A DNA stretch of 64,000 nucleotides from Phaeosaccion multiseriatum. Its lineage: Eukaryota > Protista > Ochrophyta, other classes. The notes beneath the pieces are model-generated. The model made no database searches, was not told where the DNA came from, and saw nothing but the letters and a program-made list of their open reading frames with translations. Numbering within the stretch: position 1 is the stretch's first letter; every line of letters starts with the position of its first letter. The stretch covers positions 2,790,001 through 2,854,000 of the forward strand of contig OZ218950.1 of assembly GCA_965112735.1 (NCBI GenBank). The letters are read 5' to 3'. The position numbers and the translations under genes were made by a program. This document shows, one piece after another, positions 10,528 through 10,973 of this stretch.

Positions 10528-10973
10528 TCCTCCCATACCACTCATGATTCTCATAATGCCATAAGGCTTGGCGTAGATGAAGCACTTGGCGATGTTGGCG
10601 CTGTCTCCGGTGGCGTCGACCTGGAGGGTGGCGTTGTCGATGCTGGAGGAGTTGCGAGTTGCAGGTTTGCAGGTTCCGGAGGGCTGGCTGGTGCTCCTCG
10701 GCCTTGAGTGCGAAGGAGTAGACGTTGATTCCGGTGCCGCTGGGGCAGTTTCCGTGGTGCTGGTAGGGCTGCAGGGTATCGAAGGAAGTAGGCTCCTTGG
10801 CGCTCGGAGGTGCAGTCGTGTCCGTTGAGCTGCTGCATCTTGATCTTGGCGGTGTTGACGGGGTTGCTGCCGCCGTCGGTTTCGCAGTTGAACCAGTCCA
10901 GTCCGTCCTCGGAGGCGGAGCTGCGGATGGTCCAGATGAGCTCGCTGATATCCCGGGGGGGGGGGGGGTCGTT
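10528..10973 (-). pseudogene. Endogenous viral element: C-terminal fragment of a Nucleocytoviricota double-jelly-roll major capsid protein
   Basis: Reconstructed across frames: ISELIW...NPVNTAKIKMQQLNGHDCTSERQGAYFDTLQPYQHHGNCPSGTGINVYSFALKAEEHQPSGTCNSSSIDNATL...IYAKPYGIMRIMSGMGG. This matches the NCLDV MCP signature LNGHDRF..R.G.YF..VQPYQHH...GINVYSFAL.PEEHQPSGTCNFSRIDNA.L...RIMSGMGG. Two frameshifts. Confidence 0.93.

What the first reader, a model, noticed from the sequence alone, without database searches (positions are those of the whole stretch)
10528..10973. Giant-virus major capsid protein fossil between two host genes
Seen: an intronless, frameshifted ~145-codon segment whose repaired translation carries ELIW, LNGHD, QPYQHH, GINVYSFAL, EEHQPSGTCN, IDNATL and RIMSGMGG in order. 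Known: this is the conserved C-terminal part of Nucleocytoviricota (phycodna/mimivirus-type) MCPs. Inference: it records past infection of this lineage by a possibly undescribed giant virus. It sits in ordinary gene-dense DNA rather than in a large viral island.
Basis: partly seen in the sequence, partly recalled or inferred. Interest (0 to 1): 0.88.

Follow-up and report, generated by a model that had tools for sequence, protein, structure and literature searches.

The report
Decayed giant-virus insert behind algal lipase
A broken tail piece of a giant-virus capsid gene and a broken FNIP-repeat gene lie together between two ordinary genes of a stramenopile (likely an alga), inside a short duplication that likely marks one small insertion; it is a real but familiar kind of viral fossil whose donor has no close match in the collections searched.

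Summary
Confirmed, and larger than reported. Window 10528-10949 (minus strand) is the last third of a Nucleocytoviricota major capsid gene, spread over three frames that each match Pfam Capsid_NCLDV. Two 4-nt tandem duplications break the frame, and 9 of 59 near-invariant residues are changed, so it is a pseudogene. Public contigs, one from a second sample, carry the same letters and join it to the GINS1 exon, so it is not an assembly join on that side; no laid contig reaches the lipase exon. First, a decayed FNIP-repeat gene piece lies just upstream on the same strand (11043-11371). Second, a 16/17-nt direct repeat (10436-10452, 11898-11914) copies the lipase stop region and brackets the whole 1.45-kb block, likely a target-site duplication. 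No other viral gene was found in the window. The host is likely an ochrophyte outside the brown algae. The nearest capsids are unnamed environmental ones, 61% identical at best; the only named anchors are Imitervirales IM_12, and family placement is unresolved. Small decayed giant-virus pieces in algal and protist genomes are well documented, so this is a new member of a known kind.

The parts
9754..10011 (+). Last exon of host GINS1/PSF1 (left neighbour, points toward the insert)
   Evidence: PF24997 PSF1_C E 1.4e-15
10436..10452 (.). Left copy of a 17-nt direct repeat (16/17 identical to the right copy); likely target-site duplication; on the minus strand it reads like the lipase's last three codons and stop
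   Evidence: 4 of 3000 shuffled flanks; 0 of 121 comparable flank pairs; only these 2 matches in 64 kb at up to 2 mismatches
10453..10527 (.). 75 nt of unknown origin where the last capsid codons and the capsid stop would be
   Evidence: no Pfam match
10528..10686 (-). Capsid remnant, third frame (PSGTC to RIMSGMGG); holds overlapping 8-nt and 7-nt tandem duplications at about 10675-10649 (15 nt in all, frame kept)
   Evidence: PF04451 E 0.0016; PBCV-1 Vp54 E 1.2e-4; duplications
10688..10783 (-). Capsid remnant, second frame (QPYQHH to EEHQ); ends at a 4-nt tandem duplication, 10691-10684
   Evidence: PF04451 E 6.7e-9, above cut-off; 682 of 685 candidate viral stretches confirmed as relatives
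10785..10949 (-). Capsid remnant, first frame (ELIW to LNGHD); a 6-nt duplication at 10848-10837; ends at a 4-nt tandem duplication, 10788-10781. Faint likeness may reach about 11000
   Evidence: PF04451 E 0.04; frameshift-aware alignments
10955..10968 (.). 14-nt G/C run at the upstream edge of clear capsid homology
   Evidence: one contig has it 1 nt shorter
11026..11039 (-). 14-nt A run (minus strand) that cuts off the FNIP frame
11043..11246 (-). FNIP (FGxxFN) repeat remnant, about two and a half repeats, no start codon
   Evidence: PF05725 E 2.3e-6, 28.1 bits, cut-off 21; best PDB matches Crov588 and Crov539; Atlas FNIP clusters
11225..11371 (-). More decayed FNIP-like repeats in another frame
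   Evidence: 48% over 27 aa to the downstream piece; score 60 against a maximum of 50 in 5000 shuffles and 45 in 5082 window pieces; no Pfam or PDB hit on its own
11372..11793 (.). Unassigned DNA inside the bracket (GC 0.43 then 0.58)
   Evidence: no match to the 60 viral loci
11794..11905 (.). (GTCA)n microsatellite that continues the end of the right repeat copy
11898..11914 (.). Right copy of the 17-nt direct repeat; includes the last codons and stop of the lipase gene
11903..12199 (-). Last exon of an intron-rich class-3 lipase gene (right neighbour, points toward the insert)
   Evidence: open frame ending at 11903; PF01764 in the exon at 12730-13053

Best explanation
This is a broken, likely inert piece of giant-virus DNA in the host chromosome: the last third of a Nucleocytoviricota major capsid gene next to an FNIP-repeat remnant that is likely from the same virus, likely captured as one 1.45-kb patch during repair of a break just behind the lipase stop codon. 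Shown: capsid homology and its breaks, FNIP homology, the flanking 17-nt duplication, contiguity with the GINS1 exon, and no other viral family in the window. Inferred: (1) an Algavirales/Imitervirales-type virus, most likely Imitervirales, infected an ancestor of this alga; (2) a staggered break at the lipase 3' end was filled with viral fragments, which copied the lipase's last codons to both sides; (3) the patch then decayed without selection, by point changes and by the short tandem duplications that are common in this genome's non-coding DNA. It cannot encode a capsid: there is no start, no N-terminal jelly-roll half, and two frame breaks. If the insertion model is right, the lipase's old 3' UTR was pushed 1.45 kb away, so lipase transcripts might run through the remnant. 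My odds: genuine endogenous capsid pseudogene 0.95; FNIP piece from the same virus 0.7; one break-repair capture as the route 0.5; Imitervirales-type donor 0.6.
For: Capsid identity. Only profile positions 265-420 of 425 are matched in the six-frame translation of the 64 kb. Decay: 9 of 59 near-invariant columns are changed, against a mean of 1.2 and a maximum of 8 in 120 relatives (3 further columns were trimmed from the query). There are 7 tandem duplications of 4-12 nt, against a mean of 1.6 and a maximum of 5 in 138 intact viral capsid tails; their density (16.5 per kb) is close to that of the flanking intergenic DNA (11.6-14.4) and above seven host exon stretches (0-7.8). In the genome: a contig from a second sample and study covers 9752-10788 with no difference; contigs of three runs of the first sample cover the capsid and FNIP parts, one in a single piece over 10445-11790. 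FNIP; an FNIP pseudogene inside viral DNA pieces is reported for Ectocarpus (PMC2373305, passages). Bracket. Composition fits one virus: capsid GC3 0.86 beside 43-50% GC DNA, as in viral contigs L037, L038 and L058, whose capsid genes have GC3 0.78-0.83 in loci of 41-49% GC. No other viral family in 255 ORFs.
Against: No empty-site allele was seen, so the target-site reading rests on one 17-nt repeat noticed after the fact, 8 nt of which are two units of the microsatellite motif. No laid contig bridges the microsatellite to the lipase exon. The second sample is identical over 1037 nt and may be the same strain. FNIP repeats also occur in Evosea and as 121 proteins in Saccharina (PMC4421812, passage), so that piece could be host-derived. 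No FNIP gene was found next to a related capsid (only 1 of 5 records could be searched). The tree gives the fragment a long branch (0.74-0.80, median 0.16-0.18) and support of only 54-77 at its nearest nodes. The last 13 capsid codons end mostly in A/T, unlike the rest, which one clean donor does not explain.
Confidence: 0.8

Rival explanations
1. Last scrap of a once large provirus or giant endogenous viral element that integrated here and was cut down by internal deletions, keeping its flanking duplication.
For: Two unrelated gene pieces abut, and the capsid has lost its front two thirds and its last codons. Fragmentation of integrated giant viruses is described for brown algae and Acanthamoeba (PMC11890097; PMC12210455; passages).
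Against: The lesions that the alignments show inside the capsid piece are insertions. Decay is modest (about 0.05-0.10 changes per site, by a rough simulation), which leaves little time to lose a very large block. No integrase or other viral family was found in the window.
Confidence: 0.25
2. Retroposition: a host LINE-type reverse transcriptase copied viral mRNAs during infection, switching template, and inserted them with a target-site duplication.
For: A flanking duplication of a length usual for non-LTR insertions (recalled range 7-20 nt); both pieces in one orientation; the capsid is cut at its 5' end; an A14 run follows the FNIP piece.
Against: There is no A-tail at the 3' junction. The capsid lacks its own stop and 3' end. 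The A run cuts FNIP in mid-repeat. Homopolymer runs are common in this DNA. No retroelement domain was found in the window.
Confidence: 0.15
3. Second-hand move: the block was copied from a larger viral insertion elsewhere in the same genome.
For: Dispersal of shattered viral pieces by host processes is proposed for Acanthamoeba (PMC12210455, passages).
Against: No second contig at 80% likeness or more lay on the capsid or FNIP part in runs X2, X3 and X4 (3, 3 and 1 contigs laid) or on the capsid part in X5. The tool drops some records by chance, so this is not proof.
Confidence: 0.12
4. Domesticated or regulatory sequence: an expressed capsid-derived exon, or a template for antiviral small RNA made by read-through from the two converging genes.
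For: No stop codon in the capsid frames, and codon bias is kept. The block lies between two converging 3' ends.
Against: A lack of stops is expected by chance at this level of decay (probability 0.35-0.57). Conserved residues are changed more than in any of 120 relatives. The breaks are 4-nt duplications, not introns.
Confidence: 0.05
5. Assembly chimera, or a contaminating virus in the culture.
For: Runs X1-X4 are one sample and may be the source of the window. The lipase-side junction is not bridged by a laid contig.
Against: A contig from another sample and study joins the GINS1 exon to the capsid piece without a difference. A live virus would not carry two frame breaks in its capsid gene or a copy of the host's lipase stop region.
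Confidence: 0.02

Closest known systems
Small endogenous Nucleocytoviricota fragments in eukaryote genomes (Gallot-Lavallee and Blanc 2017, PMC5294986; passages read)
   Same: NCLDV core genes amid host genes, including an isolated capsid gene in Daphnia; markers also listed for stramenopiles such as Nannochloropsis limnetica
   Different: Here a two-gene patch of 1.45 kb with a candidate target-site duplication, in an unnamed ochrophyte-like host
Viral regions of brown algae and relatives (Denoeud et al., bioRxiv 10.1101/2024.02.19.579948; passages), Porterinema EVEs (PMC11890097; passages), Undaria (10.1101/2025.02.06.636530; passages)
   Same: Ochrophyte hosts, intronless viral pieces, many partial; a minority are mimivirid or Imitervirales-related
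   Different: Those are mostly Phaeovirus regions of 2-705 kb. This one is under 2 kb, its named anchors are Imitervirales, and the host falls outside the brown algae sampled in my tree
Ectocarpus viral DNA pieces with an FNIP pseudogene (PMC2373305; passages); Saccharina FNIP family (PMC4421812; passage)
   Same: Decayed FNIP repeats inside or derived from giant-virus DNA in an ochrophyte
   Different: There the neighbours are EsV-1 homologues; here the neighbour is a capsid piece
Imitervirales IM_12 capsids (5 of 6 GVMAG loci looked up in the supplement of PMC8575486) and PBCV-1 Vp54
   Same: C-terminal jelly-roll motifs in the same order; 57% identity over 135 columns to a capsid of IM_12 locus L040
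   Different: The fragment falls outside the 94-sequence clade that holds most IM_12 copies and sits among unnamed PSGTC-type capsids with weak support; it is broken and partial
Cafeteria roenbergensis virus FNIP/FGxxFN proteins Crov588 and Crov539 (PDB 6nyr, 7zal; PMC9525666, start of abstract in a search listing)
   Same: FGxxFNQ repeat spacing
   Different: Only a few decayed repeats; the match does not show that the donor was CroV-like

Membership tests
NCLDV major capsid protein (PF04451 Capsid_NCLDV) | C-terminal domain profile score at or above the curated cut-off | tested here: met
   36.2 bits against 34.8 in one frame; the other two frames match adjacent profile parts below the cut-off
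NCLDV major capsid protein | N-terminal jelly-roll half (double jelly roll) | tested here: not met
   Only profile positions 265-420 of 425 match in the six frames of the window; no Capsid_N hit in 255 ORFs
NCLDV major capsid protein | Intact reading frame from start to the conserved end | tested here: not met
   Two frame breaks, no start, last codons and stop missing
Endogenous viral element | Contiguous with host chromosomal DNA in independent data | tested here: met
   GINS1 side bridged in a second sample; the whole viral part in one contig; lipase exon itself not reached
Endogenous viral element | Inherited across strains or species, or empty site known | tested here: inconclusive
   Second sample identical over 1037 nt, possibly the same strain; two other organisms gave no laid contigs, which proves nothing
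Giant endogenous viral element or provirus | Tens to hundreds of kb with several hallmark genes (polB, A32, VLTF3, D5) | tested here: not met
   No other viral Pfam family among 255 ORFs of 75 aa or more that passed a low-complexity filter; the rest of the assembly is not held
Imitervirales | Placement by concatenated markers such as polB and RNA polymerase | not testable with these tools
   Only 135 capsid columns are available; the capsid is a poor marker (PMC8575486, passages)
Imitervirales | Capsid nests among Imitervirales capsids | tested here: inconclusive
   All 5 anchors that could be named are IM_12; nearest nodes have support 54-77; no named Algavirales or Phaeovirus sequence was in the tree
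Phaeovirus-type provirus | Phaeovirus-clade capsid and integrase context | tested here: inconclusive
   No integrase family in the window; no phaeovirus capsid was on hand to compare
Polinton-like virus, virophage or Maverick | Their own capsid families, long terminal inverted repeats, integrase | tested here: not met
   The only capsid family matched is PF04451; no long inverted repeat in 9900-12100; no integrase family
FNIP repeat (PF05725) | Profile score above the cut-off and FGxxFN spacing | tested here: met
   28.1 bits against 21
Non-LTR retrocopy | Target-site duplication | tested here: inconclusive
   A 16/17-nt repeat beyond chance, but no empty site seen
Non-LTR retrocopy | Poly(A) tail at the 3' junction after a complete 3' end | tested here: not met
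   No A run before the left repeat copy; capsid stop missing

The most novel reading that the evidence does not exclude
The host stores scraps of an unsampled giant virus as an antiviral template. The patch was inserted with a target-site duplication between two converging 3' ends, so lipase read-through would give sense and GINS1 read-through antisense capsid RNA, and together they would feed small RNAs against that virus: an inherited immune memory in an ochrophyte.
Probability: 0.04. Interest if true: 0.75.

Novelty: new member of a known kind. Interest (0 to 1): 0.33.

Why it matters
It is a host record for a giant virus with no close sampled relative, in an ochrophyte-like lineage outside the brown algae, where most described insertions are phaeoviruses. 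If the flanking duplication is a true target-site duplication, the locus is a clean small example of how non-integrating giant viruses leave DNA in algal chromosomes, by break repair or retro-copying; an empty-site allele would test this directly. It does not change current views: such fragments are known in many protists and algae.

Tried and rejected
Whole genome: not held, so polB, A32 and VLTF3 could be sought only in the window; the middle piece was given in the wrong frame, so its blank means nothing; one search replaces it. Close relatives of the capsid: word-indexed protein search with the third frame gave 7 candidates and no hit; pattern scans of viral contigs with the first and third frames confirmed none; the metagenome scan with the first frame confirmed none of 517 candidates. 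FNIP relatives: none of 39 candidates in viral contigs; the single metagenome locus L061 is a bacterial-looking contig matched on the strand opposite an open frame that looks like dnaB (label recalled), rejected as chance. Names for near relatives: 20 clusters looked up, none named beyond 'hypothetical protein'. Folding a relative alone failed (pLDDT 33); with an alignment it folded (pLDDT 75) and matched NCLDV capsids in BFVD with top rows at 26-30% identity, which confirms the family but gives no finer rank. Marker searches in relatives' contigs: 4 of 5 records not held and none found in the fifth, uninformative. NCBIfam: nothing meaningful. Tandem duplications as a virus-specific signature: rejected, since 23% of 151 window tiles have as many. 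TpA depletion as in Bigelowiella viral inserts (10.64898/2026.01.13.699255, passages): 0.53, inside the 0.20-0.72 range of host exons, uninformative. Transposon carrier: a 24-nt imperfect inverted pair (10433-10456, 11316-11339) is reached by 1 of 25 shuffles, the right arm lies inside the FNIP-like frame, and the flanks have no other copy in the window; not supported. Expression: no RNA holder listed. Runs X6 and X7 (other organisms): no contig laid, no conclusion. Earlier findings: four look-ups returned nothing.

Full report
Observation. Each open frame matches Pfam Capsid_NCLDV (PF04451) at successive profile positions 45-106, 101-134 and 110-196, with E 0.04, 6.7e-9 and 0.002; the middle frame passes the curated cut-off. 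The third frame matches PBCV-1 Vp54 at E 1.2e-4. Read through with X at the two breaks, the stretch scores 116.5 bits against a profile of 59 capsids from those loci, and the best of 500 shuffles scores 2.4; this test is partly circular. Only profile positions 265-420 of 425 are matched in the window: the last third of the protein, without its final residues and stop. EEHQPSGTCN is not literally present; a break and five extra codons fall inside it.

How it is broken. Frameshift-aware alignment to 59 capsids mostly places two net +1 breaks, near 10781 and 10684-10660. They coincide with 4-nt tandem duplications at 10788-10781 and 10691-10684; overlapping 8-nt and 7-nt duplications at about 10675-10649 add five codons, and a 6-nt one lies at 10848-10837. 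The stretch has 7 such duplications against a mean of 1.6 and a maximum of 5 in 138 intact viral capsid tails. This is not special to the viral DNA: the density (16.5 per kb) is close to that of the flanking intergenic DNA (11.6 and 14.4), above that of seven host exon stretches (0-7.8), and 23% of 151 window tiles have as many. Of 62 near-invariant columns, 50 are kept, 9 are changed and 3 were trimmed from my query; 120 relatives miss a mean of 1.2 and at most 8. A rough simulation puts that at about 0.05-0.10 substitutions per site, where the chance of no stop codon is 0.35-0.57, so the lack of stops is no sign of selection. Third-position GC is 0.86 over 135 codons, near the host exons (0.78-0.79) but also near some intact viral capsid genes (0.78-0.83 over the whole gene, in loci of 41-49% GC).

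Is it in the genome? Five public runs hold the region: four of one sample and one of a second sample and study, all coded as the same organism. A 1376-nt contig of the second sample covers 9752-10788 with no difference, joining the GINS1 exon to the capsid piece. Contigs of runs X2, X3 and X4 cover the capsid and FNIP parts without other letters; the X4 contig covers 10445-11790 in one piece, differing by one base in a G run. These three runs may be the source of the window. No laid contig crosses the microsatellite to the lipase exon, and the second sample may be the same strain. No second copy at 80% likeness or more lay on the capsid part, though the tool drops some records (X3 showed nothing there and full cover).

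(a) About 90 nt upstream, on the same strand, 11043-11246 encodes FNIP repeats (PF05725, 28.1 bits, cut-off 21). Its best PDB matches are two Cafeteria roenbergensis virus proteins; Atlas clusters are FNIP proteins of Evosea and Nucleocytoviricota, with a recognition value below the tool's mark. A further frame, 11225-11371, resembles it (48% over 27 aa; score 60 against a maximum of 50 in 5000 shuffles and 45 in 5082 window pieces) but has no Pfam or PDB hit on its own. (b) A 17-nt direct repeat with one mismatch stands at 10436-10452 and 11898-11914. The right copy holds the lipase's last codons and stop; weaker likeness extends about ten more bases. Such a match arose in 4 of 3000 shuffled left flanks, in 0 of 121 comparable flank pairs of the window, and in 3 of 238 real tiles, each through simple repeats; the pattern has only these two matches in 64 kb. 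I noticed it after the fact, and part of it is microsatellite motif, but it reads as a target-site duplication around a block of about 1.45 kb.

Context and host. Among 255 ORFs of 75 aa or more that passed a complexity filter, Pfam found host families (GINS, lipase, CSN5, aprataxin-like HIT, aminotransferase, HSF, inositol-phosphate synthase) and no viral family beyond these two pieces. GINS1 and the lipase converge on the block. A CSN5 exon is 75-77% identical to Undaria, Ectocarpus and Chrysoparadoxa and 67-75% to named oomycetes that cover the exon. In a tree of 27 CSN5 rows (26 of 86 hits chosen, mostly named or full-length) the host is a long branch weakly sister to the brown algae (80/85, not starred), 71% identical to Undaria, while the brown algae differ little among themselves. 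It is a stramenopile, likely an ochrophyte outside the brown algae; the class is not determined.

Donor. A word-free search of 1.84 billion representatives with the 31-aa middle frame gave 124 hits. Against these and the locus capsids (267 sequences) the best full-stretch matches are 46-59% identical with gaps counted. In a tree of 120 non-redundant relatives (161 of 267 had both boundary motifs; dereplicated at 85%) over 135 columns, the highest identity is 61%, whereas the relatives' nearest neighbours are at a median of 79%; the fragment's branch is 0.74-0.80 and its nearest nodes have support of 54-77. Twenty near clusters carry no useful name. Five of six GVMAG loci could be looked up and all are Imitervirales IM_12 (PMC8575486 supplement 1); the fragment lies outside the 94-sequence clade holding most of their copies, in a 24-sequence group (support 94.8) that includes one IM_12 copy. 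No named Algavirales or Phaeovirus sequence was in the tree, and the capsid is a weak marker (PMC8575486, passages). Imitervirales-type is my best guess (0.6). Decay inflates the distance, so 'undescribed virus' is likely but not shown.

Mechanism. Most likely, during an abortive or survived infection, a staggered break just behind the lipase stop codon was repaired with captured viral fragments, which duplicated the lipase's last codons on both sides. The lipase kept the first copy; the second copy and the patch have since drifted. Homology, breaks, bracket and the GINS1-side junction are shown; the single event, the shared donor and the repair route are inferred. Rivals are erosion of a large element (0.25), retro-copying of viral mRNA (0.15; no A-tail at the 3' junction), copying from another insertion in the genome (0.12), a functional role (0.05) and artefact (0.02). 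The first three are alternative routes to the same fossil and do not dispute its identity.

Comparison with what is known. Isolated NCLDV core genes amid host genes, and markers in stramenopiles, are in PMC5294986 (passages). Brown algae and relatives hold 792 viral regions, mostly Phaeovirus, with some mimivirid-related ones (10.1101/2024.02.19.579948, passages); Imitervirales-assigned genes were reported from Undaria assemblies (10.1101/2025.02.06.636530, passages); most such elements are fragments (PMC11890097, passages; PMC12210455, passages). An FNIP pseudogene within viral DNA pieces is known from Ectocarpus (PMC2373305, passages). Ochrophyte-infecting Imitervirales exist (AaV, PMC8575486 passage; ChrysoHV, 10.1101/2025.06.17.660233, abstract). 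Supplements of the bioRxiv papers were not seen and may list this host.

Verdict. A real endogenous giant-virus fragment and a new member of a known kind. The bracketing duplication and the unplaced donor give it modest value as a testable case of small-scale capture. Interest 0.33.

Noticed in passing
window 10528-10566 (-): The last 13 capsid codons end mostly in A/T, while the 120 codons before them are about 90% G/C-ending; four high-GC3 viral capsid loci (two identical) keep 0.73-1.0 there. The protein motif is kept. A mosaic donor or a second template is possible; unexplained.
   Followed up: partly
window 10433-10456 and 11316-11339: Imperfect 24-nt inverted pair (19/24) around the capsid and part of the FNIP remnant; reached by 1 of 25 shuffles; no other copy in the window.
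   Followed up: partly
window 11794-11905: (GTCA)n microsatellite that starts in the lipase stop region and continues the right repeat copy; may have grown after the insertion.
   Followed up: no
window 10004-10051: A 20-nt near-perfect duplication, 28 nt apart, over the GINS1 stop codon: another local duplication at a gene end.
   Followed up: no
window 11364-11377 and 11411-11424: 14-nt direct repeat 47 nt apart at the upstream edge of the FNIP-like frame; may mark further decayed repeats.
   Followed up: no
window 14998-16110: Long 18-nt-unit minisatellite that reads as GKG[VI][WR]V repeats on the minus strand and gives hexapeptide Pfam hits; probably an intronic satellite rather than a gene.
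   Followed up: no
window 37529-38200: Two similar neighbouring stretches of a few hundred bases (frames 37557-38165 + and 37779-38180 - share long peptide runs), suggesting an inverted duplication or a small repeat element.
   Followed up: no
window 46935-47006 (+): One tRNA gene, the only Rfam match in the window.
   Followed up: no
window 10658, run X2: A 55-nt low-depth contig with a self-complementary loose end; looks like a library linker artefact (recalled, not tested).
   Followed up: no
L056:2500-3228: A capsid frame in a 217-kb viral contig that is only 243 aa and lacks the usual start and end; a truncated paralogue or pseudogene.
   Followed up: no
L007, L012, L022, L049: Tandem arrays of two to four capsid paralogues within the fetched loci, a reason why single-gene placement is weak.
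   Followed up: no
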